Origin: a virus | Length of the DNA stretch: 64,000 nucleotides | Direction: 5' to 3' (one strand) | Virus record (IMG/VR): IMGVR_UViG_3300027141_000003 | Coordinates: 45,913 to 109,912 of that record | Shown: piece after piece, positions 1 through 55,653 of the stretch | How positions within the stretch are numbered: position 1 is the stretch's first letter | Layout of the letters: each line of letters begins with the position of its first letter | Position numbers and translations under genes: made by a program | Notes under the pieces: generated by a model | Seen by the model: only the letters and a program-made list of their open reading frames with translations | The model's database searches: none | What the model was told of the DNA's origin: nothing

Positions 1-270
1 AAAATCATTTTTGTTTAGTACTCGCTTAACAAGTTCTTGTAGGGTTCCAGCTTCCCCGCAAGATGGGTTAAAGCATATGAATGCACCCTTCTCACGGCTA
101 ACGCTAAAGCTTGAAGTATGTCTGTTAGAGTGAAATGGGCAGTAGCATAGAAAGTCATTACCAGTTTCGCCAACTAACTCAAGACCTATAGATCTTAGGA
201 TAGATTTAATATGGTTTGGCGTGTAGTGCGTGGTATCGACTTCCCTTGCGTTATACCCTCTGATTGCCAT
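1..270 (-). CDS. DNA primase, N-terminal CHC2 zinc-binding domain (runs off window edge; not in ORF track)
   Basis: Manual translation from ATG at 270: MAIRGYN...FLCYCPFHSNRHTSSFSVSREKGAFICFNPSCGEAG, the CPFH...C..C DnaG-type zinc finger. Lies just downstream of the DnaB helicase. Confidence 0.85.
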   Translation of the reverse strand, partial: MAIRGYNAREVDTTHYTPNHIKSILRSIGLELVGETGNDFLCYCPFHSNRHTSSFSVSREKGAFICFNPSCGEAGTLQELVKRVLNKNDF

Positions 271-9020: not shown

Positions 9021-9022
9021 CT

Positions 9023-11944
9023 TTAATCCCTTGTGCTTAAGATTATGTCGCCAATTAAGCCCACGTTATAGAAGTTGCCGCCACTGGTTATAGCAGTTTC
9101 TGAGCTTCCAGATTTAAATATAGTTCTACCAACGGACACTGTGCCGTCACTTTTTATCATAAGCATTGCGGCTTTTTCATCTCCGTAATAATTGTTGTGT
9201 GCTCGGCCTGACAAGTTTTTAAAAACATACGCACCAGCAGTTGCGGAATTTAAAACTATTCCAGTGCTTGTTGCTGAAATATAAGAAGACCCAGCTCTTA
9301 AAAGTGCTGATATTGGATTTTGGCTTAAGGTTAAAGCCCCTCCAGATGTAACTCCAGCAGTTGCTTTTATGGAAATAGTTGATGATGTTGTTGATGCAGA
9401 AGCAGCTGATGAGCTGGCGTAAACAGAATTTGGATCGTCATCTTCATCAAGTGTACTTGCTGCTTTATTTTCAGTTGTAATTGTAGGTATTGAAACTGTG
9501 TCTTGATCTATTTCATACCCTTGCTTAAATGTAATTGTTTGATCTGAAGAGTCAAGTATAAGTCCGCTAGAAGATAGAGATGTGTCATCAATTGTCCATC
9601 CAGCAATTTTACTAATTCCACTTTTTGACAACTCAAATTTTGGCGTAGCTACTCCGCTTGTATATGCTGCAATTCCACCAGAGTTAATTAAAATTCTATC
9701 TCCAGAACTAGCGCTTGCTCCTATAAAAAATGTTCCAGTAATATCTAAGTTGCCAGTAATGGTTCCAGAATTTGCTGTAATCTTTCCAGTAATTTCTGCA
9801 TCTGTAGATATAAGTTTTCCAGTAGATGCTGCAATTGAAGATGCTCCTACTGTCAAAGAGCCTCCTGTAATTGTTATATCTGAAGCTGTAACTGCTCCAG
9901 CTGGAGTAACAGAAAATTTGGCTGATGAGTTTCCAGCAGATACTGGAGACCCTGCCCAAATTGCATACGTGCCAGATGAACTTATTCCAGTGTATGTACC
10001 AGTAGTTCCTCTTTCAAATTTAGATGAATCAATTGTCCACCCAGCAATTTGTCCATACTGTGCATAAATTCCACCATCTGAAGTATCAAGTCTTAATTGA
10101 ACTGCGCCTTTTTTAATTGCAAGCCCGCCACTATTTAACAAAAATCCGTCGCTAGTTAAATTTCCAGACACATTTAATGTTCCTTGAAAAATAGAAGCCC
10201 CAGATGCTCCCATAGAAATATTGCCACCAATGGTTGTTCCGCCTGCAACTCCCAAATCTCCATCAATAGATAACTTAGTTCCATTCCAAGAAACAAAGTT
10301 GCTAGATGCTCCACCTATTTTAAATAATGCAGATTGAGCAGAATCAATGTACCAATAGTTATTTGGATTTAAAACAAGACCACGTTTGCCTGTGTCTACT
10401 CCGTATCCAAACTTAAATGTTCCAGTATCAGTTCCGCTTACTCCAGCTTCAAAGTATCCAGTGGTTGAAACATTTGTGCCAACAAATGGGGATCCGCTTA
10501 CCGCAATGTTTGGAGAAAGAGCGGTATATGCAGAAGAAGTATTATTAAATTCATCATAAGAAGCAATGCCAACTTCGTAAGTAGTTCCTAAAGCTAATCC
10601 TGCAAGCCTATATGTTGTTGCATTACCTGGCGAGTCTACATAAGAATAATTTTCAAATGGCGCTGATGCTTTGTATGGCCTAAATCTAATTCTATATCCA
10701 CGAAGAGTTGAATCGGATACTCCAGTCCAAGAAATATTTACAACTCCATTGAATCCAATTGTTCCAGTGCTATCTGTTCCTGCTGTTGCAGATATTGTTG
10801 AAGGAGCAGCAGGTGCATTTACGTCTGCAGCGATTGCATCAATTGGAGTAACAGATTGCTCTGCTGACCACGAAGATGTAAATCCATCATCTGTTATATA
10901 TCTAATTTTAACATATCTAAGAGTGTATACGGTCTTCTTTATAATTGCTGGGCTTGCTCCGCTAAAAACTAAATCTAATTCTGTTGGATTGCCAGCCCCC
11001 CAAGAACTTCCACTTTCGTAAACCTTAGCAAAGGAAGCTCCAGGTGGCAACGTCCAGGTTGCAGTGTATCCATTTGTAATTGCAGTTAATGTAAATGTAG
11101 GAACTACTCCAAGCAAAACATTTGTTTTTTCAGATACAGTAAACGATACGCCAGAGTCACGATTATCTAATGAATCTGCTGAAACAAATAAGCCAGTAAA
11201 CGATGTAAAGTACTGTCCAAATGTGTTATATAGTTCTTGCTGAGTAATTAAAATTGATTGTGATGTTCCAGATGTGCTTGGAAATTTTGTAAAGAATCCA
11301 TTGTTAGATCCGTTTGTTAATCTTATAACAAACTTTTTAGCGTCCGCAGATACTGTTGCTGTTATTAATATATTATTTCCAGACCAAGATGCGGTGATTC
11401 CAGATGCTGGAGTAGGAGGAGTAACATCTAATGCTGCTGCTACTGGATCTACTGGTGTTACTGAAACTGGATCAGAGTATGCAGTATTTCCTGAAATCTT
11501 ATCTATTAGCTTTATTCGAACCCATCTCTTTAAAACATCACCAACTGTTACTGTTGTTGGGTTAGTAGAAGTTACTTTAACCTCTGTCCATCCAGTAGTT
11601 GGAGCAGTATTAGAATTAGAAACAGATTCTTCAATAATTGCATGCTCAAAATTTTTGTCAGTTTGTTTAGTAAAAGAAACTATATACCCTAAAGATGATG
11701 GGGTTACTGTAATCGTTGGCTTTGTTAATTTTGTTGTATAGGAAGCTGTAGTTACTGTATAGCCATCTGACCACTTACTTCTAGTTCCGTCTGGGAAAAC
11801 CCATTGAAAATTAAATGCATGTGGAGTGCCTGGTGTTAAATTTAAAATTGGTATAATAAAATAATCTTGTTCTGTGGTCTTTGAATTATTTTTATCTAAG
11901 TCTTTAGGGAAATAGCTTAATCTTTCTTCGTATGCGCCAGCCAT
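9023..11944 (-). CDS. tail tip/fibre protein with fibronectin type III domains
   Basis: 973 aa. Fn3 motif ISWTGVSDSTLRGYRIRF...LAGLALGTTYEVGIASYD; Gly-rich beta-helix-like C-terminal half (IAGWTI repeats). Confidence 0.8.
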   Translation of the reverse strand: MAGAYEERLSYFPKDLDKNNSKTTEQDYFIIPILNLTPGTPHAFNFQWVFPDGTRSKWSDGYTVTTASYTTKLTKPTITVTPSSLGYIVSFTKQTDKNFEHAIIEESVSNSNTAPTTGWTEVKVTSTNPTTVTVGDVLKRWVRIKLIDKISGNTAYSDPVSVTPVDPVAAALDVTPPTPASGITASWSGNNILITATVSADAKKFVIRLTNGSNNGFFTKFPSTSGTSQSILITQQELYNTFGQYFTSFTGLFVSADSLDNRDSGVSFTVSEKTNVLLGVVPTFTLTAITNGYTATWTLPPGASFAKVYESGSSWGAGNPTELDLVFSGASPAIIKKTVYTLRYVKIRYITDDGFTSSWSAEQSVTPIDAIAADVNAPAAPSTISATAGTDSTGTIGFNGVVNISWTGVSDSTLRGYRIRFRPYKASAPFENYSYVDSPGNATTYRLAGLALGTTYEVGIASYDEFNNTSSAYTALSPNIAVSGSPFVGTNVSTTGYFEAGVSGTDTGTFKFGYGVDTGKRGLVLNPNNYWYIDSAQSALFKIGGASSNFVSWNGTKLSIDGDLGVAGGTTIGGNISMGASGASIFQGTLNVSGNLTSDGFLLNSGGLAIKKGAVQLRLDTSDGGIYAQYGQIAGWTIDSSKFERGTTGTYTGISSSGTYAIWAGSPVSAGNSSAKFSVTPAGAVTASDITITGGSLTVGASSIAASTGKLISTDAEITGKITANSGTITGNLDITGTFFIGASASSGDRILINSGGIAAYTSGVATPKFELSKSGISKIAGWTIDDTSLSSSGLILDSSDQTITFKQGYEIDQDTVSIPTITTENKAASTLDEDDDPNSVYASSSAASASTTSSTISIKATAGVTSGGALTLSQNPISALLRAGSSYISATSTGIVLNSATAGAYVFKNLSGRAHNNYYGDEKAAMLMIKSDGTVSVGRTIFKSGSSETAITSGGNFYNVGLIGDIILSTRD

Positions 11945-34791: not shown

Positions 34792-35385
34792 TTACCTTTT
34801 GAAAAAGAATATGGGCACCATATACTTAGTTCCAGATATTGTTGGCTTTGGATCATGCAAAACTCCTTCTGAGGCAAATACAACTACGCTTCCAGCTTCT
34901 GGCTTTAATGATATGCCGTGATCTGGGAATTCTATTTCTCCGCCTTCGTAGTCATCATTTAAATACATAACCATTGAAACAGTAGATGTATGCTCTGCCC
35001 CATCGTATGCGTCTACATGCGCCCCCATATGAACACCAACATTATATTTATTTATACCAAAATAAACTGGTAAGTATCCTAGTTCTATTCCAGAACTAGC
35101 AGCATACTCTTCACCTATTGAGATTACATTTTGTGTAATCATAGAGCAAAGTTTGGCATTACTTCTATCTGCATCCGTAATGTTTTGAAACATATTTAAA
35201 AAGCATTTTTTTAGCTTCCCATAAGAAACATTACTATTTGATGCATTCCACTGTTCCCATTGTGATATTTGAGAAAAGGGACCCTGAAAGGCATCCATAT
35301 CTTCAATCTCTTTTACAAAGGATATCGGGTCTGCAATAACATTTTTATAGTAATGTATTTCAGGATGTAAAATTTCTTTAATCAT
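34792..35385 (-). CDS. 2OG-Fe(II) dioxygenase, prolyl 4-hydroxylase-like
   Basis: HVD...YLNDDYEGGE...H...KY; likely start MIKEI. Confidence 0.88.
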   Translation of the reverse strand: MIKEILHPEIHYYKNVIADPISFVKEIEDMDAFQGPFSQISQWEQWNASNSNVSYGKLKKCFLNMFQNITDADRSNAKLCSMITQNVISIGEEYAASSGIELGYLPVYFGINKYNVGVHMGAHVDAYDGAEHTSTVSMVMYLNDDYEGGEIEFPDHGISLKPEAGSVVVFASEGVLHDPKPTISGTKYMVPIFFFKR

Positions 35386-36085
35386 ATTTACCTTTATATG
35401 TTGGAATGTTGCCAACTTCTTGGCCCTTCTTCCACTCCTTATAGGTTTCTTCTTGTTCTGCTCTTGTTTGCTTTAATTCAGATTCCCACTCCGCTATCTG
35501 CTCTGGAGTGTAAACAGCATCTGCATTATCCCAAAAGGATCCAACCGTGTATCTTTCTGCATTTTTAACAGTAGTCACTTCATGCTCATTGCCATGCCCA
35601 CCTTTAAAGAAGGCCAATCTTCCTGGCTTTGCTTTGACCACTATATCGTGATGTTTAAAGTTTAGGTCCCCACCTTCAAAATTATCATTTAGATATAAGA
35701 ATCCAGCATACTTACTTTTATAAAATGCAGATGGGCTTCCGTCTTCATGTGTATTGTCTGAATGAAAACTAGCAAATGCTCCAATAACCCATTTTTGTGC
35801 ATGATAGCTTACCTCTGATAGCTCTCTACCAAAACACTCTTCTCCAGCTTTTTTAATTTTTTCCTTTAATTGAGAAAAGTAATCTGATGGCAGCCCAAAC
35901 AACAATAGGTTATCGTCATGTGGCCAGTAGCCCATGGCAAATGAGCCATAAAAAGAAATTTGGTTCCACTCTAAATGTCCTGCATTTACAATTCCGTCTA
36001 GGTATCCAATAATAGACTTACATTCCTCTTCTGTTATTAAATTATCAATAATAAAGACATCGTCTTTTAAAGCTGTTATTTCCAT
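35378..36085 (-). CDS. 2OG-Fe(II) dioxygenase, prolyl 4-hydroxylase-like
   Basis: HSD...YLNDNFEGGD...H...RY. Confidence 0.88.
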   Translation of the reverse strand: MEITALKDDVFIIDNLITEEECKSIIGYLDGIVNAGHLEWNQISFYGSFAMGYWPHDDNLLLFGLPSDYFSQLKEKIKKAGEECFGRELSEVSYHAQKWVIGAFASFHSDNTHEDGSPSAFYKSKYAGFLYLNDNFEGGDLNFKHHDIVVKAKPGRLAFFKGGHGNEHEVTTVKNAERYTVGSFWDNADAVYTPEQIAEWESELKQTRAEQEETYKEWKKGQEVGNIPTYKGKYD

Positions 36086-36927
36086 TAGCATTCCTTCTTT
36101 TCTGCTTTAGATACAAAATCTAAATGATCTTCTATTTCTTTTTTAGTTGGCTCAACCTTTTGGCCATCTTTAAACACTAAGTTTCCTCCATAAATGTCGG
36201 CGTCTATTCTTGCCTGTTCCATTTCGGCCCAACGTTTTGCCCCATACTTAAGCTGGTTAGCAAGCCACTCTTCTGATCCTGCATACGGGTAGATCATAAA
36301 GTTTCTAATAAGATACTTGTTACCTCTAGTAGCTGTTCTAACTCCGTGATAATAAGGCTCTCCAGATGGAAATACCATGATGTCTCCAGCCTCTGGTTTA
36401 TATGCAGGAACAAATTCCCCGTCTACATAAAATTCAATCTCTCCACCTTCATAGTCATCATTGATGTAAACAGTGCATGTTAAGAAAAATTGATTGCCTG
36501 GCATGTCTTTTTCGCTTTGCTTAAAATCTGTATGGTACTGCATTGTTAAATTATTTTTTAAAGCGTCTACATTTGTGTGGTATTTACAGAAAGAAGAAGA
36601 GCCAAGCTTGCAATCTTCTGGAAGATCAATTTTATACTTATCAATATAATCATCAATTGCTAAGTTATAGGCATCATATACTGTTTCTGCGGCCCAATAT
36701 TGCAGATCAAACTCTTCATCTTTACCCAATTGATCTTGAACCCCACCTTTAAATTTTGTGCTGGCATAATTACCGAAAGCACTCCAAGGGGTCCATGGGT
36801 TAAAGTATTTGTCTCCAGTATTGTTTTCTGTAGATTGAATTACTTCAAATATTTTCTTATGATCTGGTAGTAAGTTTTTGTAAACTTCAATTCTAGGATA
36901 TAGTGTTTTTGTTACAAGACTCGACAT
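36085..36927 (-). CDS. 2OG-Fe(II) dioxygenase, prolyl 4-hydroxylase-like
   Basis: HTD...YINDDYEGGE...HGV...KY. Confidence 0.88.
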   Translation of the reverse strand: MSSLVTKTLYPRIEVYKNLLPDHKKIFEVIQSTENNTGDKYFNPWTPWSAFGNYASTKFKGGVQDQLGKDEEFDLQYWAAETVYDAYNLAIDDYIDKYKIDLPEDCKLGSSSFCKYHTNVDALKNNLTMQYHTDFKQSEKDMPGNQFFLTCTVYINDDYEGGEIEFYVDGEFVPAYKPEAGDIMVFPSGEPYYHGVRTATRGNKYLIRNFMIYPYAGSEEWLANQLKYGAKRWAEMEQARIDADIYGGNLVFKDGQKVEPTKKEIEDHLDFVSKAEKKEC

Positions 36928-37595
36928 TATTTGCCTCTTCCCAACTTATCTATTGTCCAGAACCACGGAGAAGTGTATCTGGTGCCTTCTGTAATTATAT
37001 CAACACCGTGAATATAATTTAAATCTCCAGGGAAAAAATAGGCTGCTTTTTTCTTTGGCTTAAAAGCAACTTTTTGTTTAGGGAAATGCAACCTACCACC
37101 TTCGTAGTCTTCATTTAAATAAAAGATTGTTCCTAAGTCATACCAAGGGAAGTTACCTGGCTTGCCAGCATCTGGACCTTCATGTAGCTCTTTGTCGGCA
37201 TGGGGCCATTGCATTGATCCAACTGGCCATCTAACTAGACACGGTCCAGTAGGCGTTACCTCTACATCAAAATGTTCTTCTATAACTGGCTTTAATCTGT
37301 TAATGATTACTTCAAGCATTTCTACTACTTCTGGCCCTGTTTGATCTAAGGACTTCTTCGTAGCTACTCGGTCTTTCCAGACATTATGCTGGTAAATAAT
37401 TGTTCCGTTTTCGTTGTATACATCTTCGCCTGGATCCCAAGTTGTATTATTTTTAGCAAACTCTAGGAGGTAATCACACTCTTCATCTGTTAAAAAATTT
37501 TCAACTTCTACTATATTCTCTGGGCCTGCGCCAAAATATCCAGATGGTGTTATAGACGTTCTGTGATCTCTTATGTCGGAAATGTTTTTATCCAT
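36927..37595 (-). CDS. 2OG-Fe(II) dioxygenase, prolyl 4-hydroxylase-like
   Basis: NFLTDEEC, HAD...YLNEDYEGG...HGV...RY. Confidence 0.88.
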   Translation of the reverse strand: MDKNISDIRDHRTSITPSGYFGAGPENIVEVENFLTDEECDYLLEFAKNNTTWDPGEDVYNENGTIIYQHNVWKDRVATKKSLDQTGPEVVEMLEVIINRLKPVIEEHFDVEVTPTGPCLVRWPVGSMQWPHADKELHEGPDAGKPGNFPWYDLGTIFYLNEDYEGGRLHFPKQKVAFKPKKKAAYFFPGDLNYIHGVDIITEGTRYTSPWFWTIDKLGRGK

Positions 37596-37611
37596 TTATT
37601 ATATCCTTTTC

Positions 37612-38340
37612 TTATTCATACTTTTTGGGAACCCAAGTTTTTTGCTTATAAACTCCATATTTTACTTTTCCTAAACTATCTTCTCTATAAATTTTTGTAT
37701 GTGCTTCGTGGCTATTTGCCATTTCTTGTTCTGTAAACAAGTTAAATTCGGAAGACCAATTTTCTCTTTTGTAGGGGAAAATTTGTGCGTAAGGAGTTCC
37801 TTTTTTAATTATACCCTGAAAAGTATTTTTTATAAAAAACGGGATAAGCCCTGGGGCCCCGTACTTATCACTATCAATTATACCTCCTGTGGTCAAAAAA
37901 GGCAGCTCGAAATGATTTATAGGTTGCATTACAAGGGCGCTATAGCCCTTTGGTAAAGTGAACCCCCAGTCTGGGTACCAATGAAATCCTTGGTTGTAAT
38001 ATCCTTCTGGATAGTGGAATTGACCCATATGAGGCCTGCCTTCACAAAACCCCGCAAAACCTTGCTCTGGCTGAATATAAATACTATCGTTATATTTAGT
38101 AACCGCTACATCACATGGGGTTGTAAACATATATCCTGAAGAAAAAACATCATGTAATGCTGGACAAGATTTAAATCCAGGACCTTTGCTATTGTCTGGT
38201 GGTAAATCTATTACTGCGTCATTTTCATCAGTCCAATATTTGCTTGCATTTAAAAACCAATCTGGAGTAGTTTTTTTTGCTGGAGAAGGCACAGTATTTT
38301 TATCGTTATATGCCCTATTGGAATTAAAAACAATTTTCAT
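37612..38340 (-). CDS. DUF6065-related hypothetical protein
   Basis: PDWF...KSCPA...GY...P.D, TLPKGYS...P.N, IKKGTPYAQIFP; a divergent relative of the two upstream genes. Confidence 0.55.
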   Translation of the reverse strand: MKIVFNSNRAYNDKNTVPSPAKKTTPDWFLNASKYWTDENDAVIDLPPDNSKGPGFKSCPALHDVFSSGYMFTTPCDVAVTKYNDSIYIQPEQGFAGFCEGRPHMGQFHYPEGYYNQGFHWYPDWGFTLPKGYSALVMQPINHFELPFLTTGGIIDSDKYGAPGLIPFFIKNTFQGIIKKGTPYAQIFPYKRENWSSEFNLFTEQEMANSHEAHTKIYREDSLGKVKYGVYKQKTWVPKKYE

Positions 38341-39059
38341 TTATTTAGATTCTTAACATCTAGCTTAATTGATTTAACTTCATGCTCTCCTAGAGCATTA
38401 CCCATGTAGTCTACGGCATCTCTGTAGTAATCCGTCCACTTACCTTCGGCATTAGCTTTTTCAGCAGCAGCCATTGCTCCCTCAAGAGTAAGAGGGATAT
38501 CTCTTTTTAGAAAAGGAGCATCGTGTCCTTCTCCCAAATTAATTGTAGAATTATTTAATTGAGTAAGAGATATTGGCATTATTGCAATTATAGGATCATT
38601 TGCCTTTATTGTAATTGGTACAAATGGTCTTGTAATTTTCCATGCAACTGGGAGAGGCCCTTCAAAAAAAGATGTAGTTAAAATACTTGTGACTGCGCTG
38701 GCCCCATCTACAAAATGATTAGGAACTGGGAAAGATAAAAGGCTGTAGTCTTTATCCGTTACAAATCTAAGGTTGGTTTTAAAGTTAATTGTTGCGTGTC
38801 CTCTACCAGTTTCACAGTATTTTTCTCCTTCTAAAATTTTTACATTGTCTGGATAGGTGCTTGTTATTCCATCCCACATAAAGGTTATATTTTCAGGAAA
38901 AGACAATCCCCATCCTATTTGATTGCTAAGTGTAATTGGAAAACATCTATATGCATGCTTATGAGCAGTTTCATCCATCCAGTCTCTTTTTGCAGAAAGT
39001 GGTGTTATGTTTGCAGAAAATGAAGATCCTGAAACCTTATAGGCATTTAAATTAATCAT
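38337..39059 (-). CDS. DUF6065-like protein
   Basis: KRDWMDETAHKHAYRCFPITLSNQIGW...PVPN...WKITRP...YRDA; likely start MINL. Confidence 0.7.
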   Translation of the reverse strand: MINLNAYKVSGSSFSANITPLSAKRDWMDETAHKHAYRCFPITLSNQIGWGLSFPENITFMWDGITSTYPDNVKILEGEKYCETGRGHATINFKTNLRFVTDKDYSLLSFPVPNHFVDGASAVTSILTTSFFEGPLPVAWKITRPFVPITIKANDPIIAIMPISLTQLNNSTINLGEGHDAPFLKRDIPLTLEGAMAAAEKANAEGKWTDYYRDAVDYMGNALGEHEVKSIKLDVKNLNK

Positions 39060-39750
39060 TATTTTTTCCCCCTTCAATAACATAAAGACTTATTTTTTTT
39101 GTTTCGTGCTGGCCTACAACATTTCCATATTGGTCTAATCCGTCTCTGTACCAGTTTGTAAATCCATTTTTCGATAAACTAAATTCTTGCATTTTTTTCA
39201 TGTATTCTTCGTCATGTTTTAAATTGGGCACTTCTTTATTGTGCATTGTAATTGATGACTTATTCAATTCGGACAAAGATATCGGAATTATTGATGCTAC
39301 GGGTGTGCCAGCTTTAATGGTAATAACTTTATTTTTAGACAGAACCTTCCATACAACTTGAAGTCCTGCTGTATAAAAAGATGAAGATGTTATTGAAGTA
39401 AGGCATTGAACATCTTCTGCAATTTGATTTGGAACGGGCATAGTTAAAATACTAAAATTTGAATCTGTTTTAAATATTAAATTTGTTGCAAAACATATTA
39501 CTGATTGCCCACGTTCAAAAAAACAATATTCTTCTCCGCTTATTACTTCTATCCCAGACTCATTTCCATTATCATTTAAAACAAATGAAATATCTTTTGG
39601 GAATGATATACCCCATCCAAGTTCATTTGATATAGTCAATGGCGGACAGTTGTATGCATATGGATGAGTTTGCATCCATTCTCTCTGTGGCTTTAATGGA
39701 GATAGTATTGCCTCTAAGCCACCTGTTCTATAGCAATCAAAGTCTATCAA
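39052..39750 (-). CDS. DUF6065-like protein (paralog)
   Basis: QREWM...AYNCPPLTISNELGW...PVPN...WK...YRDG; aligns by eye with 38337..39059. Confidence 0.7.
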   Translation of the reverse strand: MIDFDCYRTGGLEAILSPLKPQREWMQTHPYAYNCPPLTISNELGWGISFPKDISFVLNDNGNESGIEVISGEEYCFFERGQSVICFATNLIFKTDSNFSILTMPVPNQIAEDVQCLTSITSSSFYTAGLQVVWKVLSKNKVITIKAGTPVASIIPISLSELNKSSITMHNKEVPNLKHDEEYMKKMQEFSLSKNGFTNWYRDGLDQYGNVVGQHETKKISLYVIEGGKNND

Positions 39751-40491
39751 CTACATATCCCTTTGTTCGGCAGGCTTAAATCTTTTCCCTTCAACCAAGT
39801 GGTTGTACTCGTAGCTAGCTTCGATTTCTCGATACATTGGAGTATGAGGTGCTTCTTGATAGTCTAACATTGTTACAATTGCATATTTAGTTCCTGATTT
39901 AACTGGCATTGCTGCATGAGAATATATATAAGAAGACGGGAAAAGATATAGGTCTCCAGCTTTAGGTTTTACTGTAACGCCAAGCTTGTCAAAAAATAGC
40001 TCTCCGCCTTCATAATCATCATTGATATACCCTACTGAAGACAATACGCATACGTAAGAATATCCATGATCGGAATGGACATTAAAATGTTGGTTTTTGC
40101 CGTACTTAATAAAATTAAACGACTCCCAATAATTTAACGGAGGAATTTGAAACATTTGCATATAGTCTGCTACTGCCGACATTTGAAGACTTTTTGCTTC
40201 TCTCCAAATTTGCCTTAATTCAATTTCATCTTCAGTAAAATCTTTTGGGTCAACATGAGTTCCATTACCCAGCATTAATGATCCGCCATCGTTTTCTTTA
40301 ATTTTAAAATCCCAAGCATCTCTGTAGTCTTTATTTAATGTATCGTATCCAGTCTGGGCTAGATTCCAATGCTTCTTGCCCTGTGTCTTAGATAGCACTG
40401 ACTCCAGCCTTTGATCTAAATTATATTCTTTTTTAAAAACATCTCTGTATACAACAATTCCAGGATATATTGTTTCTGCATTTGGCAACAT
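39751..40491 (-). CDS. 2OG-Fe(II) dioxygenase, prolyl 4-hydroxylase-like
   Basis: HSD...YINDDYEGGE...FPSSYIYSH...KY. Confidence 0.88.
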   Translation of the reverse strand: MLPNAETIYPGIVVYRDVFKKEYNLDQRLESVLSKTQGKKHWNLAQTGYDTLNKDYRDAWDFKIKENDGGSLMLGNGTHVDPKDFTEDEIELRQIWREAKSLQMSAVADYMQMFQIPPLNYWESFNFIKYGKNQHFNVHSDHGYSYVCVLSSVGYINDDYEGGELFFDKLGVTVKPKAGDLYLFPSSYIYSHAAMPVKSGTKYAIVTMLDYQEAPHTPMYREIEASYEYNHLVEGKRFKPAEQRDM

Positions 40492-41118
40492 TTAATTAAC
40501 CACCTTTTTGTGTTTTCTATCAACATAGTCATCGTATTCTTTTGAATGAGCATCATCATTATAGTCTAACATTGTTACAAAAGAGTACTTCACCCCAGAA
40601 TCCACTGGAAGGGCCACATGAGAATAAATAAAGGAAGACGGGAAAATTATTAAGTCTCCTTCATTAGGCTCTATATGTAAATCGAACTTAGGAAAAAAAA
40701 GACCTCCGCCAGTATAGTCAGAATTAGGATATCCAACTAATGATACGGTAGATTTATAAGACCATCCATCGTCAGCATGCTCTTTAAAAAATTGATTTGG
40801 ATAATACTTTACAACATTTGTCCATTCCCAAAAATCCATTTTAATGCTGTACATTTCACAAAAATCTTCTACTTGATCTTTTTGGCAACTGTATATGTCA
40901 TTGTATATATCTAAATATTCTGGCTTATCGTAAATCTTTAAGTCTTGACAATTTCTATACTCTAAATCTTGATCTTCTAAAGATACCGTTGCAATATCCC
41001 ACTTTAAAATATTATCGTTTACCTTATCTTCAATTCTTTGAATTAAATTTAATTCTTTAGGGAAGGCATTTGGATATTTCCAGATGCCTGGATATAGCTG
41101 TTGTTTGTTATATATCAT
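40492..41118 (-). CDS. 2OG-Fe(II) dioxygenase, prolyl 4-hydroxylase-like (paralog of 39751..40491)
   Basis: HAD...YPNSDYTGG...FPSSFIYSH...KYS..TMLDY. Confidence 0.88.
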   Translation of the reverse strand: MIYNKQQLYPGIWKYPNAFPKELNLIQRIEDKVNDNILKWDIATVSLEDQDLEYRNCQDLKIYDKPEYLDIYNDIYSCQKDQVEDFCEMYSIKMDFWEWTNVVKYYPNQFFKEHADDGWSYKSTVSLVGYPNSDYTGGGLFFPKFDLHIEPNEGDLIIFPSSFIYSHVALPVDSGVKYSFVTMLDYNDDAHSKEYDDYVDRKHKKVVN

Positions 41119-41157: not shown

Positions 41158-42750
41158 CTATGCTAGGGTTTTGCAGCCGTTGTAAGCCAGCATTGATTCT
41201 GCTGCTATTAGTCCCCATGGCTCTCTATAAAACAAAAATACCTTGGTTTCTTTTTCAACAACTTCAAGTGATTCAATATTGATAAATTCTTCTATACCAT
41301 CTTTATAAAATACAATTTGATCATTTTCTTTAAGATTTGATGTTGTTGCAAACTGATATCTACCGCCTCTTTTTATTAAAATCTGCTCAACTGTAGACAA
41401 GTCGTTTTTTTCTTCATTGTTTATTCTAATAACAGTAGTATTGGTCTTTTCGTAAATATTAAAGACCGTAGACTCAACATAAGATACGTTGTTCAATGTA
41501 TCTGCTCTCCAGTTCTCTACTAGTTCCAAACAGTTCCTCGTAACTTCGCCTATGCTACAAGCGTCGTCTCCTTCTGGGCTATCGTCAAAGTTTACTGTTA
41601 ACAAAATATCTCCGTTAACGATTTCTTTGGCTTTTTTGTAGCCATTTTTTGTTAAGACATTGGTATCTTCTGGAATACAAAAAGTTGGCGGCGCAAAGAA
41701 TCTAGGTGGAGAAAAGAATCTAGGTGGTGAGAAGAATCCTGGTGGCCCAAAGAATCCTGGTGGCGAGAAGAATCCTGGTGGAGAAAAGAATCTTGGTGGT
41801 GAGAAGAAGCCTGGTGGAGAAAAGAATCTAGGCGGTGAGAAGAATAGGGGAGGTGAGAAAAATAGGGGAGGTGAAAAGAATCTAGGAGGAGCGAAGAATA
41901 GGGGAGGGGCAAAGAATAGAGGTGGAGAAAAGAATCTAGGCGGAGCGAAGAATAGAGGTGGGCTGAAGAATAATGGTGGGCTGAAGAATAATGGTGGGGA
42001 GAAGAATAATGGTGGGGAGAAGAATCTTGGCGGGGCAAAAAAATCAGGTGGGGCAAAGAATAGAGGTGGTGAAAAGAATGTAGGAGGGGAAAAGAATGTT
42101 GTAATTTGATTTGAGGATCTTGGCAAAGACGTTCCATTTGCATTTACTGCAACTACAGAATAAGTTTGAACTGTTCCCATTGTTTCTCTAATGTTAATAG
42201 TTGTTGTTGTACCAGTAACTTCATAAGGAGAAGCTAATCCTCCTGGCTGAGCCGCCGTATCGGTAGATGTAATAATATATTTTGTTAAAGGCTTTCCACC
42301 AGAAGTTGATGCAGACCAAGAAACAACATCCTGACCTCTTAGGTCTTCTGTTGTGTGTCCTGGTCCAGTTGTACTAGAAACTGCAGTTACTGATGCTGGA
42401 GCAGCAGGTATGGTTGTAAATAAAACAGGAGAAGAGGCGGTTGATGCATCTGATTGTCCATTTGCGTTGGTTGCCTTTACAGTTGCCGTTCCTGTTGCAC
42501 CTTGTGGAATACCAACAATTGTAATTGGAGAAGATGCTCCAATATCCGAAAATGTTCCTTGATCAGTTACTAAAGTAGCGGTGTAGCTTACAATTGGTAG
42601 CTGGTTTGGTGGATACTCAAAAGAGATTATAGCTGAAGCATTGTTAAAAGGCCTGTTTGTTCCAACGTCTGTTACAACAACATTTATAGGTGGTATGGGA
42701 AGTTCAAAGTCTCCAGAGAGCTGAGATTTTCTACCAACTTTTTTACCCAT
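41158..42750 (-). CDS. Fn3-Fn3-(FF[SAG]PPx)23-Hint domain protein
   Basis: Two Fn3-like domains (VKATNANGQS, VVAVNANGTS), 23 hexapeptide repeats (aa 219-356), and a Hint/intein-like domain from Cys358 (CIPEDTNVLTKNG...GD) to Asn524 (MLAYN). Confidence 0.85.
   Translation of the reverse strand: MGKKVGRKSQLSGDFELPIPPINVVVTDVGTNRPFNNASAIISFEYPPNQLPIVSYTATLVTDQGTFSDIGASSPITIVGIPQGATGTATVKATNANGQSDASTASSPVLFTTIPAAPASVTAVSSTTGPGHTTEDLRGQDVVSWSASTSGGKPLTKYIITSTDTAAQPGGLASPYEVTGTTTTINIRETMGTVQTYSVVAVNANGTSLPRSSNQITTFFSPPTFFSPPLFFAPPDFFAPPRFFSPPLFFSPPLFFSPPLFFSPPLFFAPPRFFSPPLFFAPPLFFAPPRFFSPPLFFSPPLFFSPPRFFSPPGFFSPPRFFSPPGFFSPPGFFGPPGFFSPPRFFSPPRFFAPPTFCIPEDTNVLTKNGYKKAKEIVNGDILLTVNFDDSPEGDDACSIGEVTRNCLELVENWRADTLNNVSYVESTVFNIYEKTNTTVIRINNEEKNDLSTVEQILIKRGGRYQFATTSNLKENDQIVFYKDGIEEFINIESLEVVEKETKVFLFYREPWGLIAAESMLAYNGCKTLA
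41683..42096 (-). repeat. 23 x 18-bp coding tandem repeat (FF[S/A/G]PP[L/R/G/T/D])
   Basis: Counted directly; codons are synonymously diverged between copies. Confidence 0.95.
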
Positions 42751-42763
42751 TTAATTGCCTTTC

Positions 42764-43264
42764 TTAAACAGTTAAGTCACCAAATAGAAGCCAGGTGTTG
42801 GCGTCTCGTTTTAATAGTGTTGCCATTGACCACTGGAATCTTAATTTGTTGCCTGGAGTGTAATTTAAAACTACACCTGCGCCAGCCACAACGGTTGTTT
42901 GGCCTGTTCCAGATTGCAAAATATCTAAAGTTGTTCCTACGGGGAAATTTACAACAGAGTCTGCTGGTATTGTAAAATTATTTGCAACTTGCATTCTAAT
43001 GTCTACAATTGTATCTCTTTGATTTAAGTTATTAAGCGTATGCGGGAAATAATAAGTATTAATTGGGGTTAAAGATTGTACGGCTGTTTTGCTCTGAATT
43101 CCATCTTGAAATACTACAGTTCCGCCTGCAAGATTTAAAGTGCCAGCCAAATTAACTGTTCCAGCTAAGGTTGTTGTTCCTTGAAATCCAGCTCTGTCAT
43201 TCACTGATAAGGACTTGACTTGCAAGTCCTCATCAGTATTGAATTTACCTTTATTGAGGGCCAT
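42764..43264 (-). CDS. small virion fibre/adaptor protein
   Basis: C-terminal TIPADSVVNFPVGT...Q.GTGQ...W.LFGDL domain typical of fibre C-termini. Confidence 0.65.
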   Translation of the reverse strand: MALNKGKFNTDEDLQVKSLSVNDRAGFQGTTTLAGTVNLAGTLNLAGGTVVFQDGIQSKTAVQSLTPINTYYFPHTLNNLNQRDTIVDIRMQVANNFTIPADSVVNFPVGTTLDILQSGTGQTTVVAGAGVVLNYTPGNKLRFQWSMATLLKRDANTWLLFGDLTV

Positions 43265-52634: not shown

Positions 52635-54569
52635 TTAGGCAGAAATGTCTACAAGCTCACAATTTCCGTCTGAACTGCATGCCAGGGTGGCATTGGTAGA
52701 TGTTCCATCTTCTGTTTCATAAAAAGATAAGTCTTCCCAACGAATTTCTTTAGGCATCTTGGCGACAAGGTTTTCGTATTCTTCTTTTGTTACTTCTTGA
52801 TATGGAGCTTGCTTATAAGAGTGATCTGAATGCGGCAAGAATGAGATACCAGAAACTTCATCAAAGTTCTTATATACCCAAGCTCCTACTTCCATCCATT
52901 CATCCTCTTTAACTGAAACTGTAATTGATGGCTTATGTTCACACCAAGCACGTTGGTAAACTAGCCAAATATTTAAATGCTCGATAGCTGTTAGGTCATT
53001 TCTAACGATTGCACCCTCTGGTGCTTTTACTGGAAATGAAAATACGTAAGTCTCGTTTGGCTTCATTACGTCATCCTCTACTGGAATTCCGACTTCCTTC
53101 AAAAAAGTAGAAATTGGATCTCCCTTAGAACCACGAACTGTGCGAATATAATATGGGGAATGCCATGCATGCATTCCTGAAGACACCCCGACCAATTGAG
53201 ATACTGTTCCTGATGGCTTTACGCATGTAATAGCGGCAGACTCTGGAATCCCAATTTTTTCAGCCTCATCTTTATTCTTTGCTCTTGCTGATTCTCTAAG
53301 AGTCATTAAAAATGCTTCTAGCGAAACCAGGTCTTCTTTGCCTGACATGAACTTATGTCCAAATTGTCCAGTAAGAGATACTCCTAGCAGACGTTCTTCT
53401 TCTGTATTGTCTTTCCAAATTTTGCGGAGATATTTAAAGTCTGTAAGCGTTGACTGCCATGTCCCAAGAATAGTAGCAAGCTCAACTTTACGTTCGATAT
53501 CTTTCTTTGTATCATTTTCACGCAGTACGACTTCTGAAAGGTTACAAAACTGGTAAGGACGTAGGATAATCTCTGAACAGGGGTTAGTTCCATAGTGTAT
53601 ATCTGGATCTCTTCTTCCATATTTGGCTGCTTGGGCTTGAGCTGCGGCCACATTGTATATACCTCGTTCTCCTGACTTTGAATCATATAGAGATTTCCAT
53701 TCTGCAATAAACTGCTCCATCTCTGGTTTGCGTGAATACGCAACAGAGTTATTAGATAGTGAACGCTGGGTATTATTCTCCCACCAGTTGCCAGATTTTG
53801 CTGCGGCCATTTCAATATCATTAATATTAGAAAGAGAAATCATAGCTGAGCGACGAACTCCTCCAACTACAACAACTTCACCAATCTTACACATAATGTC
53901 ATGTGCTTCAATAGGCTTTAGATTGCGTCCTGCTGCTGATTTAAATTTTGCAACAGTAAAATCAAATAGGTTAACTAATGGTTGTGGGCCAGATGATCTA
54001 CCACCCATTGTTTTAAGTCTTGCTCCTGCGGGACGTACCTTAGATACATCAATTGCTGGAATTTGTCCTGACCAAAGTAACGCAAGAAGTTCACGGTATG
54101 CTTTTGCCCAACCTTGTTTAGAATCTTCAACCACAATAACTGTTGTTGATTTTTCAAATGTTTCTGGAACGGCAGGAAGCTTATTAATATACTTATACTC
54201 AACAGAGAATCCTACACCTGTACCACACATAAGAATATACATGGTTTCATCAAATGATCTTGGGTTATCTACTGGAACAAATGAGCAATTGTATCCAGCA
54301 ACATGATCTCTATCTAATGCAGCACCTGCAGTCATGACCGATCTCATTGATGGCATAACATTTCTGTTAAAGACTGCAGACTTTAACTCTTCAATTAATT
54401 TTGATTCTGGTTCATACGAGTGTTCTTTAAAAAGATGGTTTAACATAAAGTCAAAATATCTATCTACTGTTTCCCCCCAAGTCTCACGACGATTTTCTTC
54501 TGGAATCCATCTTGCATAACGAGACAATGCAATAAAATTTTCGTATGGGTTTTCAATAGTTTTTGACAT
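52635..54569 (-). CDS. nrdJ: class II (adenosylcobalamin-dependent) ribonucleotide reductase
   Basis: YNCSF, GGVRRSA, TNPCSEI, CNLSEV, TCVKPSGT and C-terminal CSSDGNC; no small-subunit gene adjacent. Confidence 0.92.
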   Translation of the reverse strand: MSKTIENPYENFIALSRYARWIPEENRRETWGETVDRYFDFMLNHLFKEHSYEPESKLIEELKSAVFNRNVMPSMRSVMTAGAALDRDHVAGYNCSFVPVDNPRSFDETMYILMCGTGVGFSVEYKYINKLPAVPETFEKSTTVIVVEDSKQGWAKAYRELLALLWSGQIPAIDVSKVRPAGARLKTMGGRSSGPQPLVNLFDFTVAKFKSAAGRNLKPIEAHDIMCKIGEVVVVGGVRRSAMISLSNINDIEMAAAKSGNWWENNTQRSLSNNSVAYSRKPEMEQFIAEWKSLYDSKSGERGIYNVAAAQAQAAKYGRRDPDIHYGTNPCSEIILRPYQFCNLSEVVLRENDTKKDIERKVELATILGTWQSTLTDFKYLRKIWKDNTEEERLLGVSLTGQFGHKFMSGKEDLVSLEAFLMTLRESARAKNKDEAEKIGIPESAAITCVKPSGTVSQLVGVSSGMHAWHSPYYIRTVRGSKGDPISTFLKEVGIPVEDDVMKPNETYVFSFPVKAPEGAIVRNDLTAIEHLNIWLVYQRAWCEHKPSITVSVKEDEWMEVGAWVYKNFDEVSGISFLPHSDHSYKQAPYQEVTKEEYENLVAKMPKEIRWEDLSFYETEDGTSTNATLACSSDGNCELVDISA

Positions 54570-54657
54570 TTTTAAGTAACACCTTTTCTCCGCCTTGCGG
54601 TTGCATGATTTTTAGTTGAAGTCTAATTCTACCAAATATTAATTCAAAGGGGAAGGG

Positions 54658-55653
54658 CTACAGAAACTTTTTGTCTAAATGATCAAATGCATTCTTGGTC
54701 AACTTAATCCAATTGTATTGTTCATGTATTCTAGGAGACTGGGCAAAGTAGTATCCTGAATATGCTTTAAAATTAATAACTGAATCGTACATCAAGTCTT
54801 CTAAATGTTTTGCATTTGGCTTAAACATTTTACCAATATGTGGATCTCCTACTGCTTTTGGAAGAGTCTCATCTGTAAGGTTAGACTTTAGGGCTAATGG
54901 ACCAATAAACTCTTTGTATTCCGCCCACGGATAAGTTGTTATAGTGGGCATTCCTGATGCAAGAGCCTGGAGCGGTATGAATCCAAAACCTTCTCCCCAA
55001 GTTGGATACACAAGAACGTGGTGGCTGTGATAAAGCATTACTAGCTGATCAATGTCATACTCTTCCGTAATAATTTTTACGTTGCTATAAACATCTGACG
55101 GCGAAACAAGTTGTTCTTTATCGTTGTAAACTCTAATTGAAGTAGTTAAGTGTGCTTTAATTGTTAAATGATATTTTGGATTATTGCCAAACATTTTAAC
55201 AAAAGTATCTAAAACTAATTGCCCATCTTTTCTGGGAGAAGGCTCCCCAATATGCAAAAATTTAAACACATCTTTAACAACTCTTTTACGTGGCGCCCAA
55301 ACATCTTGGATACCGTGTGGATAAACCATTATGTCTTTGTTGACGCCATTTTCTTTAAATATTTTTGAGTTCCATGTTGAAGTTGCCCAAACTTCGTCAC
55401 ACAAATTAAATCTATCTACCCATTCTGGCCGCATGCCAGTTGATTCCCAGGGAGTATATCCTATTTGATATTGGTTTTTATGCAGCTTATATAAATGAGG
55501 TTGAGTAAAGTTTATTTGTATTGGAGCTTTTGAATTTGACCACTTTACAGTATGTCCTAATTCTTGTAATGATTTAACTATATGTTGAGATGCATATCCA
55601 AAGCCAACTGCTGGATTTAATCCTGATTTTGGTGTATAAAAAGATATATCCAT
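54658..55653 (-). CDS. GT4-family glycosyltransferase
   Basis: PWES, HG, RKDG and GEGFGFIPLQALASGMPTI (EGFG-x-P-x-[E/Q]A motif). Confidence 0.88.
   Translation of the reverse strand: MDISFYTPKSGLNPAVGFGYASQHIVKSLQELGHTVKWSNSKAPIQINFTQPHLYKLHKNQYQIGYTPWESTGMRPEWVDRFNLCDEVWATSTWNSKIFKENGVNKDIMVYPHGIQDVWAPRKRVVKDVFKFLHIGEPSPRKDGQLVLDTFVKMFGNNPKYHLTIKAHLTTSIRVYNDKEQLVSPSDVYSNVKIITEEYDIDQLVMLYHSHHVLVYPTWGEGFGFIPLQALASGMPTITTYPWAEYKEFIGPLALKSNLTDETLPKAVGDPHIGKMFKPNAKHLEDLMYDSVINFKAYSGYYFAQSPRIHEQYNWIKLTKNAFDHLDKKFL

What the first reader, a model, noticed from the sequence alone, without database searches (positions are those of the whole stretch)
41179..41679. Non-canonical C-terminal Hint (intein-like) domain fused directly to the repeat tract
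Seen: the repeat ends ...FFAPPTF|CIPEDTNVLTKNGYKKAKEIVNGDILL, which is a block A with Cys1. Later come NLKENDQI, IESLEVVEKETKVF and MLAYN|GCKTLA*. There is no endonuclease insert, the block B TxxH reads TVEQ, the penultimate His is Tyr, and the terminal Asn is followed by Gly-Cys and only a 6-aa tail. Established: stand-alone Hint domains (hedgehog, bacterial intein-like) form a thioester at Cys1 and cleave or ligate the N-terminal part to a nucleophile. Inference: the domain may activate the repeat's C-terminus for release, cyclisation or covalent attachment to another virion protein, lipid or small molecule. Alternatively it may be catalytically attenuated and serve as a folding or enzyme-docking module.
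Basis: partly seen in the sequence, partly recalled or inferred. Interest (0 to 1): 0.8.

Follow-up and report, generated by a model that had tools for sequence, protein, structure and literature searches.

The report
Variant Hint domain capping phage fibre repeat
The last 173 residues of a phage fibre-module protein are a true Hint (intein/hedgehog-type) self-processing domain from a large, unstudied phage family, but this copy has replaced three of the usual catalytic residues while keeping the nucleophilic cysteine, so it probably still cuts itself off the Phe/Pro repeat by altered chemistry.

Summary
Gene 41158-42750 (-) encodes two Fn3-like domains, 23 FFxPPx units plus one Phe, then a 167-residue domain from Cys358 to Asn524 and a 6-residue tail.

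- **Fold:** the domain alone gave no Pfam or PDB sequence match. An exhaustive search found 57 relatives. AlphaFold2 on that alignment (pLDDT 95) matches only Hint structures, Z up to 14.7. Cys1 and Asn167 fall on the first and last intein residues.
- **Family:** among 87 unique domains, Cys1 is present wherever the N-terminus is covered.
- **Non-canonical residues:** These define a conserved clade under purifying selection (dN/dS about 0.2).
- **Subclade feature:** a CX8C insert always travels with Cys at +2.
- **Context:** the gene usually follows a fibre-end-domain gene (50 of 60 loci; one fusion found) and usually precedes 2OG-oxygenase/DUF6065 genes (44 of 56).
- **Function:** most likely a thioester forms at Phe357|Cys358 and the domain releases itself. 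No chemistry was tested.

This scan has noted the same repeat-Hint layout in at least 35 other genomes.

The parts
41158..42750 (-). Whole gene, 530 aa: N-terminal peptide, two Fn3-like domains, FFxPPx repeat, Hint domain, 6-aa tail
   Evidence: ORF list and translation. The full-length AF2 model shows two beta-sandwich domains, an unstructured repeat (pLDDT about 40) and a confident C-terminal domain.
42097..42699 (-). Two Fn3-like beta-sandwich domains (about residues 18-218)
   Evidence: AF2 strands at residues 22-203, pLDDT mostly above 90 for the first domain. The family profile matches titin and other Fn3 domains. Pfam fn3 is found in 14 relatives, though not in this protein scanned alone.
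41680..42096 (-). Repeat tract, residues 219-357: 23 x FF[S/A/G]PPx plus one Phe
   Evidence: Counted. Tandem Repeats Finder gives period 18, 22.4 copies, 78% matches. AF2 pLDDT is about 40 with no secondary structure.
41677..41679 (-). Cys358 = Hint residue 1, the predicted nucleophile; the scissile bond is Phe357|Cys358
   Evidence: Aligns with residue 1 of solved inteins, BILs and HhC. It is Cys in 61 of 61 unique family domains that cover it. The codon is TGT in the window and in both close orthologues.
41527..41574 (-). Subclade-specific insert EGDDACSIGEVTRNCL carrying Cys398 and Cys407 (CX8C)
   Evidence: Absent from other clades. Both Cys are kept in all subclade members that cover it, and the insert co-occurs 10 of 10 with Cys at +2.
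41386..41397 (-). Block B, Ser452-Thr-Val-Glu455: Ser in the Thr place, Glu in the His place
   Evidence: Register fixed by the relative P0053 against BIL 2lwy (SLDH aligned to TFDH) and by the subclade profile against 5bkh (E aligned to H). S/T95 is invariant; position 98 is E in 48, H in 23 and Q in 15 domains.
41179..41253 (-). Blocks F and G, KETKVFLFYREPWGLIAAESMLAYN: Leu at the block F Asp, clade-specific Arg509 and Gly513, Tyr523-Asn524 at the end
   Evidence: Per-position counts by clade. L149, Y151, R152, N167 are invariant in the subclade down to 28% identity. Asn167 aligns with the terminal Asn of inteins.
41161..41178 (-). C-terminal tail GCKTLA (+1 Gly, +2 Cys), then the stop at 41158-41160
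   Evidence: Translation. G168 and C169 are invariant in the subclade.
42764..43264 (-). Upstream partner gene: 166-aa protein made of a fibre-end ('FE') domain
   Evidence: PHROG tail-fibre and minor-tail C-terminal families, E 3e-14. An FE-domain gene ends within 150 nt upstream of 50 of 60 family genes. FE is fused to a Hint protein in P0023.
34792..41118 (-). Downstream array: six 2OG-Fe(II) oxygenases and three DUF6065-like genes (context, not part of the domain)
   Evidence: Pfam and PHROG hits. Oxygenase or DUF6065 genes start within 5 kb downstream of 44 of 56 family genes.

Best explanation
Residues 358-524 are a genuine Hint-fold autoprocessing domain. It belongs to a large phage-only family that always sits at the extreme C-terminus of fibre-module proteins, directly after a low-complexity aromatic/proline repeat.

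Proposed mechanism (inferred, not shown):
1. After folding, Cys358 attacks the Phe357 carbonyl (N-to-S acyl shift).
2. The resulting thioester is resolved, most simply by water.
3. The 19-kDa Hint domain detaches. The mature protein is Fn3-Fn3-(FFxPPx)23-Phe.

In this picture the domain is a self-removing C-terminal propeptide. It would keep the greasy repeat soluble or in register, or present it to the neighbouring oxygenases, during assembly onto the fibre-end protein encoded just upstream.

This copy belongs to a derived clade that swapped the block B His for Glu, the block G His for Tyr and, in its subclade, the block F Asp for Leu. These are conserved replacements, so I read them as a remodelled active site, probably slower or conditional, rather than a dead one. 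A bulky -1 Phe may help strain the scissile bond.
For: **Fold.** AF2 with 59 homologues gives pLDDT 95 and pTM 0.89. All 33 Foldseek PDB hits at E<=1e-3 are Hint proteins: HhC, BILs, inteins. VIA-align gives Z 14.7 and rmsd 2.3 A over 132 residues to the RecA mini-intein, with model residues 1..167 on intein residues 1..440.

**Homology.**
- 57 relatives were found in 1.8 billion representatives.
- The family profile hits BIL 2lwy at 3e-7, the RadA intein at 1e-6 and the KlbA intein at 3e-6.
- 25 of 59 members touch Pfam Intein_splicing.

**Constraint.**
- Cys1 is present in 61 of 61 unique domains.
- Position 98 is H, Q or E in 86 of 87 (the exception is Gly).
- N87, S/T95 and D120 are invariant.
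- In the subclade, S95, E98, R152, N167, G168 and C169 are invariant down to 28% identity.
- dN/dS is 0.19-0.20 against two orthologues, with synonymous changes in the Cys41, Cys50, Glu98, Tyr166 and Asn167 codons.

**Relatives with the full canonical set.** Some have Cys1, S-x-x-H and HN followed by a non-nucleophile, the layout of type A BILs, which cleave and can splice (PMC4031507).

**Compensation for the lost His.** Bulky -1 residues including Phe compensate for loss of the block B His in the N-S shift and in N-cleavage (PMC6333167). In the E clade the -1 residue is small in only 2 of 35 sequences, against 11 of 28 in the other clades.

**Position.** The domain is always C-terminal, with tails of 0-28 residues.
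Against: No cleavage has been observed for any family member.

This copy lacks three residues that class 1 inteins normally need: the block B His, the block F Asp and the block G His. Cys1 could instead be kept for a metal site or a disulfide together with Cys398, Cys407 and Cys526.

The -1 bulk argument is weak. The sequences are not independent, and the Gln-type clade, which also lacks the His, has Gly at -1 in 5 of 11.

The clade-specific substitutions trace mostly to one evolutionary event, so their co-variation counts as one observation.

All Pfam Hint matches of relatives are below Pfam's gathering scores in the rows I inspected.
Confidence: 0.5

Rival explanations
1. A retained, non-cleaving Hint domain. 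The fold is kept as a structural cap, an oligomerisation or fibre-docking module, or a recognition handle for the oxygenases, and it stays on the mature protein. Cys358 would serve in a Zn site or a disulfide rather than as a nucleophile.
For: The block B His, block F Asp and block G His are all replaced in this copy. The subclade gained three extra Cys (CX8C plus Cys at +2) that co-occur 10 of 10. With Cys1 that makes four, a typical metal-site count. Purifying selection fits a structural role equally well.
Against: Cys1 is invariant across all clades, including those without the extra Cys. Position 98 stays H, Q or E in 86 of 87 (the exception is Gly). The terminal Asn is kept in 40 of 48 E-type domains. 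A purely structural domain has no need to begin exactly at a nucleophile aligned with intein residue 1.
Confidence: 0.25
2. Thioester-mediated ligation, as in Hedgehog or BUBL. The Cys358 thioester is resolved not by water but by a nucleophile on another molecule: a Lys, Ser or Thr of the fibre-end protein or another virion protein, a glycan or a lipid. The repeat's C-terminus would then be attached covalently.
For: HhC (Z 14.1-14.3) and Tetrahymena BIL2 (Z 14.7) are among the top structural matches. BIL2 forms a Lys isopeptide bond and is Zn-activated (PMC8616854). The gene is tightly coupled to a fibre-end-domain gene (50 of 60 loci).
Against: There is no sterol- or adduct-recognition region after the Hint domain, only 6 residues. 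The natural fusion P0023 joins the fibre-end domain to the N-terminal side of the protein. That suggests the N-terminus, not the C-terminus, meets the fibre. No acceptor has been identified.
Confidence: 0.15
3. BIL-type splicing. Asn524 cyclises, and the freed tail GCKTLA, through its amine or through Cys526, attacks the thioester, joining the repeat to the short tail.
For: Asn167-Gly168-Cys169 is invariant in the subclade. Type A BILs can splice without a +1 nucleophile (PMC4031507). His-type relatives keep a conserved 14-residue tail, KKGxFQGPTxRD.
Against: The penultimate His that assists Asn cyclisation is Tyr here. The Cys is at +2, not +1. Sister clades have Tyr at +2 and sometimes Gly or Ser in place of the Asn. 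Adding six residues has no obvious use.
Confidence: 0.05
4. An ordinary mobile intein, or a decayed remnant of one that lost its C-extein.
For: Mini-intein size and fold.
Against: - The domain sits at the C-terminus in all of about 90 non-redundant members, with N-terminal parts that are Fn3-like in many members (Pfam fn3 in 14) and PASTA in 7.
- There is no +1 nucleophile and no endonuclease.
- It is under purifying selection.
- It is preceded by a repeat, not by a conserved host-protein site.
Confidence: 0.02

Closest known systems
Type A bacterial intein-like (BIL) domains, e.g. Clostridium thermocellum BIL (PDB 2lwy)
   Same: - Hint fold: Z 14.5, rmsd 2.1 A over 129 of 138 residues.
- Best PDB sequence hit of the family profile, 3e-7.
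- Cys1, no +1 nucleophile, no endonuclease, located in variable surface-type proteins.
- His-type relatives share S/T-x-x-H and a terminal HN.
   Different: The window copy has Glu for the block B His and Tyr-Asn instead of His-Asn. It is strictly C-terminal, with only a 6-residue tail. It is phage-encoded and follows a Phe/Pro repeat.
Hedgehog C-terminal autoprocessing domain (HhC / Hog; PDB 1at0, 6tyy)
   Same: It was the top Foldseek hit (E 6e-6), with Z 14.1-14.3. The architecture is the same: an N-terminal functional part, a Cys-initiated Hint at the C-terminal end, and a thioester that releases the N-terminal part.
   Different: There is no sterol-recognition region after the Hint. The TxxH His is absent. 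No evidence exists for a lipid adduct.
BIL2 of the Tetrahymena thermophila BUBL locus (PDB 6y75, 6tmm)
   Same: Z 14.7 over 136 residues. It is a Hint domain that transfers its N-terminal partner to a Lys amine and is modulated by Zn (PMC8616854). This is a precedent for ligation and for metal control.
   Different: It is eukaryotic, sits between ubiquitin-like domains and keeps the catalytic His69. A metal site in the phage domain is only inferred from the Cys pattern.
Class 1 mini-inteins (Mtu RecA 5i0a/2in0, gp41-1 6qaz, Npu/Ssp DnaE and DnaB)
   Same: The fold matches from residue 1 to the terminal Asn (Z 12.6-14.7). Blocks A, B, F and G are recognisable.
   Different: There is no C-extein to ligate and +1 is Gly. 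The block B His, block F Asp and block G His are all replaced. It is not inserted in a conserved host protein.
Jumbo-phage 'putative tail protein, contains intein domain' (Erwinia phage Y3 gp110, ARW58750.1; Phage NCTB BN7874_136)
   Same: Same domain family: family HMM conditional E 7.6e-16 and 4.4e-28. The Hint is C-terminal in a tail-region protein next to tail-fibre genes, and it follows a repetitive (collagen-like G-X-Y) region.
   Different: Those copies keep the canonical T-x-x-H and HN. The repeat is collagen-like and is separated from the Hint by another domain. No oxygenase array was seen in the 10-kb regions inspected.
Intramolecular chaperone autocleavage (ICA) domains of phage tailspikes and fibres (endosialidase, T5 L-shaped fibre)
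   Same: This is a functional analogy only. It is a C-terminal domain of a phage fibre protein that aids assembly and then cuts itself off (PMC8326128).
   Different: The fold and chemistry are unrelated (a Ser-Lys dyad in a trimer). No homology exists.

Membership tests
Hint superfamily (fold level) | Hint beta-fold spanning the whole domain | tested here: met
   AF2 pLDDT 95. Foldseek probability 1.00 to HhC, BILs and inteins. Z 12-14.7 over 120-140 residues, model 1..167 on intein first..last residue.
Hint superfamily (fold level) | Cys/Ser/Thr nucleophile as the first residue | tested here: met
   Cys358. It is Cys in 61 of 61 unique family domains that cover it. Three outliers read as Ser in the MAFFT alignment.
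Hint superfamily (fold level) | Detectable sequence homology to known Hint families | tested here: met
   Met only transitively. The domain alone has no Hint hit. The family profile hits BIL and inteins at 3e-7 to 3e-6. 25 of 59 members touch PF14890, below its gathering score in the rows inspected.
Hint superfamily (fold level) | Block B Thr/Ser-x-x-His | tested here: not met
   Ser452 is present, but the His place holds Glu455. His is kept in 23 of 87 family domains.
Class 1 intein | Internal position with a +1 Cys/Ser/Thr on a C-extein | tested here: not met
   +1 is Gly and only 6 residues follow.
Class 1 intein | C-terminal His-Asn | tested here: not met
   Tyr523-Asn524. The Asn is kept and the His is lost.
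Class 1 intein | Protein splicing activity | not testable with these tools
   Needs expression and mass spectrometry.
Type A BIL domain | Cys1, C-terminal His-Asn, no +1 nucleophile (PMC4031507) | tested here: not met
   Cys1 and the non-nucleophilic +1 are met. His-Asn is not met in this copy (Tyr-Asn). His-type and Gln-type relatives do end in HN followed by K, R or L.
Type B BIL domain | No similarity to intein block G (PMC4031507) | tested here: inconclusive
   The window keeps a block-G-like strand ending in Asn that aligns with the intein terminus. No type B reference sequence was compared directly.
Hedgehog/Hog autoprocessing domain | Adduct (sterol) recognition region C-terminal to the Hint module | tested here: not met
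   A 6-residue tail only.
Pretoxin-HINT (PF07591) | Hint placed upstream of a C-terminal toxin domain | tested here: not met
   No domain follows the Hint. Only 8 of 59 relatives give weak PF07591 matches.
Phage C-terminal repeat-Hint family (defined here) | Hint at the extreme C-terminus right after a low-complexity aromatic/Pro repeat, in a gene following a fibre-end-domain gene | tested here: met
   Tails of 0-28 residues and repeats abutting Cys1 in all complete members. An FE gene lies directly upstream in 50 of 60 loci. The window has both.

The most novel reading that the evidence does not exclude
The Glu/Tyr-type Hint is not a simple self-cutter. It would be a slow, gated thioester generator. 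Its four cysteines (Cys358, Cys398, Cys407, Cys526) would form a Zn or redox switch at the active site. The precursor would then persist until assembly or release, and would then ligate the C-terminus of the (possibly hydroxylated) Phe/Pro fibre covalently to another virion protein or to a host-envelope nucleophile. That would be a phage counterpart of hedgehog/BUBL-type transfer.
Probability: 0.1. Interest if true: 0.85.

Novelty: new variant of a known kind. Interest (0 to 1): 0.6.

Why it matters
Hint domains are known as inteins, hedgehog processing domains and bacterial BILs. Here they appear as a standard C-terminal cap on phage fibre-module proteins. More than 75 viral contigs carry it, plus cultured jumbo phages where it is only auto-annotated, and I found no functional study.

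If the cap self-cleaves, it is a second, chemically distinct route to maturing phage fibres, beside the known ICA chaperone domains. It also defines the exact C-terminus of a repeat that is the obvious candidate substrate for the many 'orphan' phage 2OG oxygenases.

The clade in this window is a natural experiment in Hint catalysis. The block B and block G histidines are replaced by a conserved Glu and Tyr while Cys1 is kept. Testing it would show how much of the canonical active site is dispensable. It could also yield a conditional cleavage tag.

Tried and rejected
**Searches with the domain alone that found nothing useful**
- Pfam, PHROGs and PDB sequences gave no Hint match.
- The only hits were sub-threshold and I treat them as chance: Pfam E7R (E 0.002, 18.7 bits against a cutoff of 27), a designed Kelch repeat protein, and IL-36Ra (E 1.3).
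- tblastn of the whole protein and of the domain against 50,697 GenBank phages found no match. The same was true for the PASTA-type relative P0012.
- The word-indexed homology search found nothing, twice.

Contexts of distant relatives therefore came from IMG/VR loci only.

**Other negatives**
- The genome-contig scan with the His-type alignment found no cellular copy. This used a single pattern, so it is weak evidence.
- Literature searches for a C-terminal Hint on phage fibre or tail proteins, for DUF6065 and for the Erwinia phage Y3 protein found no study of this family. Hits were ordinary terminase inteins.

**Rejected readings**
- The ORFs overlapping the repeat on other frames (41652-42143 -, 41660-42109 +) are artefacts of the 18-nt periodicity.
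- Cyclisation of the repeat has nothing to support it.

- Distances between the four Cys could not be measured, because predicted coordinates are not returned by the tool.
Full report
**What is there.**
The window is part of a 109,912-bp IMG/VR virus record with terminal repeats. It encodes a 2261-aa tape-measure protein, portal, head protease and capsid-type proteins, so the virus is a long-tailed phage. Its fibre-region proteins resemble cyanophage virion proteins at no more than about 45% identity.

Gene 41158-42750 (-) encodes 530 residues. A full-length AlphaFold2 model built on 16 homologues shows four parts:
- two beta-sandwich domains at about residues 20-218;
- a tract at 222-355 with pLDDT about 40 and no secondary structure;
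- a confident C-terminal domain.

The tract is 23 units of FF[S/A/G]PPx plus one Phe. Cys358 takes the place of the second Phe of a 24th unit.

**Is it a Hint domain?**
Taken alone, the 173 residues match no Hint model in Pfam, PHROGs or PDB sequences and nothing in GenBank phages.

An exhaustive phmmer search of 1.8 billion representatives found 57 relatives, 16 of them at E<=1e-10. Aligned (A1), the more distant ones show textbook motifs: C-[IV]-x-x-D-T at the start, R-F-S-L-E-H in block B, V-Y-D in block F and H-N at the end.

Three independent results then agree:
- The family profile hits solved BIL and intein sequences: 2lwy at 3e-7, Pho RadA at 1e-6, MJ0781 at 3e-6.
- 25 of 59 members touch Pfam Intein_splicing, 8 touch PT-HINT and 4 touch Hint_2. 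In the rows I inspected these matches are below Pfam's gathering scores, so Pfam's curated thresholds do not capture the members I inspected.
- AlphaFold2 on A1 gives pLDDT 95 and pTM 0.89. All 33 Foldseek PDB matches at E<=1e-3 are Hint proteins, led by the hedgehog autoprocessing domain.

VIA-align gives Z 14.7, rmsd 2.3 A over 132 residues to the RecA mini-intein. Model residues 1..167 align to intein residues 1..440. Similar scores come from Tetrahymena BIL2, the C. thermocellum BIL and HhC.

BFVD and the ESM Atlas point the same way. The nearest viral models are uncultured-phage 'PASTA', 'Fibronectin type III' and 'Hint domain containing' proteins. The nearest Atlas clusters carry Hint families and are mostly viral.

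**How non-canonical is it?**
I aligned 87 unique domains to a 173-column model.

Conserved across the family:
- Cys1 is present in all 61 that reach the N-terminus.
- Asn87, Ser/Thr95 and Asp120 are invariant.

The block B His position (98) is His in 23, Gln in 15 and Glu in 48. The one exception is Gly.

The register was fixed two ways. A His-type relative aligns S-L-D-H to T-F-D-H of BIL 2lwy. The subclade profile aligns its Glu to the His of the PolII mini-intein. In the window, block B is therefore Ser452-Thr-Val-Glu455.

The Glu type goes with Tyr at the penultimate position (36 of 48), with Arg152 and Gly156 in block F, and with a tail [A/G]-[Y/C]-P. The His and Gln types keep His-Asn and an Asp at 156.

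I built a tree with these trait columns masked. It places 42 Glu-type rows, including the window, on one side of a branch (SH-aLRT 93). It needs about 7 changes at position 98 overall. The Glu/Tyr/Arg/Gly package is thus essentially one event, while H/Q/E exchange at position 98 recurs.

Within the window's subclade (A4, identities down to 28%), S95, E98, D120, L149, Y151, R152, N167, G168 and C169 are invariant. Leu149 sits where class 1 inteins have the block F Asp.

The subclade also has a 12-residue insert with two Cys (CX8C). This insert occurs only together with Cys at +2, in 10 of 10 sequences.

The domain is under purifying selection. dN/dS is 0.20 and 0.19 against the 84% and 65% identical orthologues, with synonymous changes in the Cys41, Cys50, Glu98, Tyr166 and Asn167 codons. 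This is a conserved variant, not a decaying intein.

**Context.**
Two scans of IMG/VR gave 74 further loci.

| Feature | Count |
|---|---|
| Gene ending in the same fibre-end domain as the window's 166-aa protein, stopping within 150 nt upstream | 50 of 60 family genes with enough upstream DNA |
| 2OG-Fe(II) oxygenase or DUF6065 gene starting within 5 kb downstream | 44 of 56 with enough downstream DNA |

Many contigs are near-copies, so these are not independent counts.

One metagenomic protein (P0023, 916 aa) carries the fibre-end domain at residues 138-226 (E 4e-11) and the Hint at its C-terminus. It is a natural fusion linking the two genes. It also suggests that the fibre-end protein meets the N-terminal side of the Hint protein.

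N-terminal parts vary (Fn3 in 14 members, PASTA in 7, and one glycine-rich domain). Repeats vary too (FFxPPx, FGFSPFxV, poly-Pro). The repeat always abuts Cys1, and the tail after the Hint is 0-28 residues. Some contigs have two such cassettes.

Small PASTA-type members often lack a full oxygenase array nearby, having none or only a single oxygenase gene about 2 kb downstream. The Hint function therefore does not depend on the oxygenases.

The only cultured relatives found are tail proteins of Erwinia jumbo phage Y3 (gp110) and Phage NCTB. Both are deposited as 'contains intein domain'. They have collagen-like G-X-Y repeats and a canonical C-terminal Hint that scores conditional E 7.6e-16 and 4.4e-28 against the family model. 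All metagenomic members looked up are unnamed or 'hypothetical'. I found no paper on the family.

**How it most likely works.**
*Shown:* the fold, the boundaries, the conserved nucleophile, the conserved variant motifs and the gene neighbourhood.

*Inferred:* Cys358 forms a thioester with Phe357, and the domain leaves. The mature protein then ends in ...FFAPPTF.

The type A BIL layout of the His-type relatives (Cys1, HN, no +1 nucleophile) is known to give mainly cleavage products (PMC4031507).

For the window's clade, loss of the block B His need not abolish step 1. In the Ssp DnaB intein, bulky -1 residues including Phe compensate for H73A in the N-S shift and in N-terminal cleavage (PMC6333167). 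Here -1 is Phe. In the Glu clade, small -1 residues are rare: 2 of 35 against 11 of 28 elsewhere, Fisher p 0.0015, uncorrected for relatedness. However, the Gln clade has Gly at -1 in 5 of 11, so this is a lead only.

By analogy with the ICA domains of tailspikes (PMC8326128), the Hint may act as a removable C-terminal propeptide for a difficult repeat. Procollagen C-propeptides offer a similar analogy (own knowledge).

I put about 0.5 on self-release by hydrolysis, 0.15 on transfer to another nucleophile, 0.25 on a retained non-cleaving domain and 0.05 on BIL-like splicing to the tail. A mobile intein is essentially excluded.

**Novelty and verdict.**
The superfamily is known, and a C-terminal 'intein domain' is already auto-annotated on a few jumbo-phage tail proteins. 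What I found no description of is:
- the family as a regular cap of fibre-module repeat proteins;
- its coupling to a fibre-end protein and to oxygenase arrays;
- the conserved Glu/Tyr active-site variant with its Cys-rich subclade.

This scan has already noted the same repeat-Hint layout on other DNA: 44 notes in at least 35 genomes. Those notes agree with this report, but they are not independent evidence.

The feature is a new variant of a known kind, and the chemistry remains to be tested.

Noticed in passing
window 41527-41574 and 41161-41178: A CX8C insert (Cys398, Cys407) and Cys526 at +2 always occur together in this Hint subclade (10 of 10). With Cys358 that makes four Cys, possibly a Zn or redox site at the active centre. 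Distances could not be measured.
   Followed up: partly
protein P0023 (metagenomic, 916 aa): A natural fusion of the fibre-end domain (residues 138-226, E 4e-11), Pro/Thr linkers, Phe/Pro repeat and C-terminal Hint. It links the window's two adjacent genes 42764-43264 and 41158-42750.
   Followed up: partly
loci L047, L049, L056, L064, L067; contigs behind L007/L019, L008/L018, L015/L024, L044/L071: Several viral contigs carry two fibre-end plus Hint cassettes, typically a small PASTA-type and a larger Fn3-type protein.
   Followed up: no
His-type relatives, e.g. L004:3032-4384, L010:6801-8513: A conserved 14-residue tail, KKGxFQGPTxRD, follows the terminal His-Asn. It behaves like a conserved mini C-extein of unknown role.
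   Followed up: no
window 37612-39750: Three tandem DUF6065-like genes sit inside the oxygenase array. Two hit Pfam DUF6065 at 7e-25 and 3e-30. The third is seen only through PHROG 7084 (7e-32). No paper mentions DUF6065.
   Followed up: partly
window 41652-42143 (-) and 41660-42109 (+): Long ORFs in other frames over the repeat (His/Ser/Leu-rich and GGEKN-rich) are artefacts of the 18-nt periodic DNA.
   Followed up: yes
window 52635-55653: A ribonucleotide reductase (PHROG 367, E 2e-190) and a glycosyltransferase (PHROG 2170, E 1e-57) lie directly beside the fibre gene block.
   Followed up: no
window 5085-11944: Two very large ORFs (1311 and 973 aa) downstream of the tail genes have no PHROG match at E<=1e-5.
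   Followed up: no
L078:4017-5453 (Erwinia phage Y3 gp110) and L079:3960-5941 (Phage NCTB): Cultured jumbo phages have a collagen-like tail protein ending in a canonical Hint of this family. Phage NCTB also has a separate 153-aa 'intein domain protein' gene right after it, and a 'large intein domain protein' nearby.
   Followed up: partly
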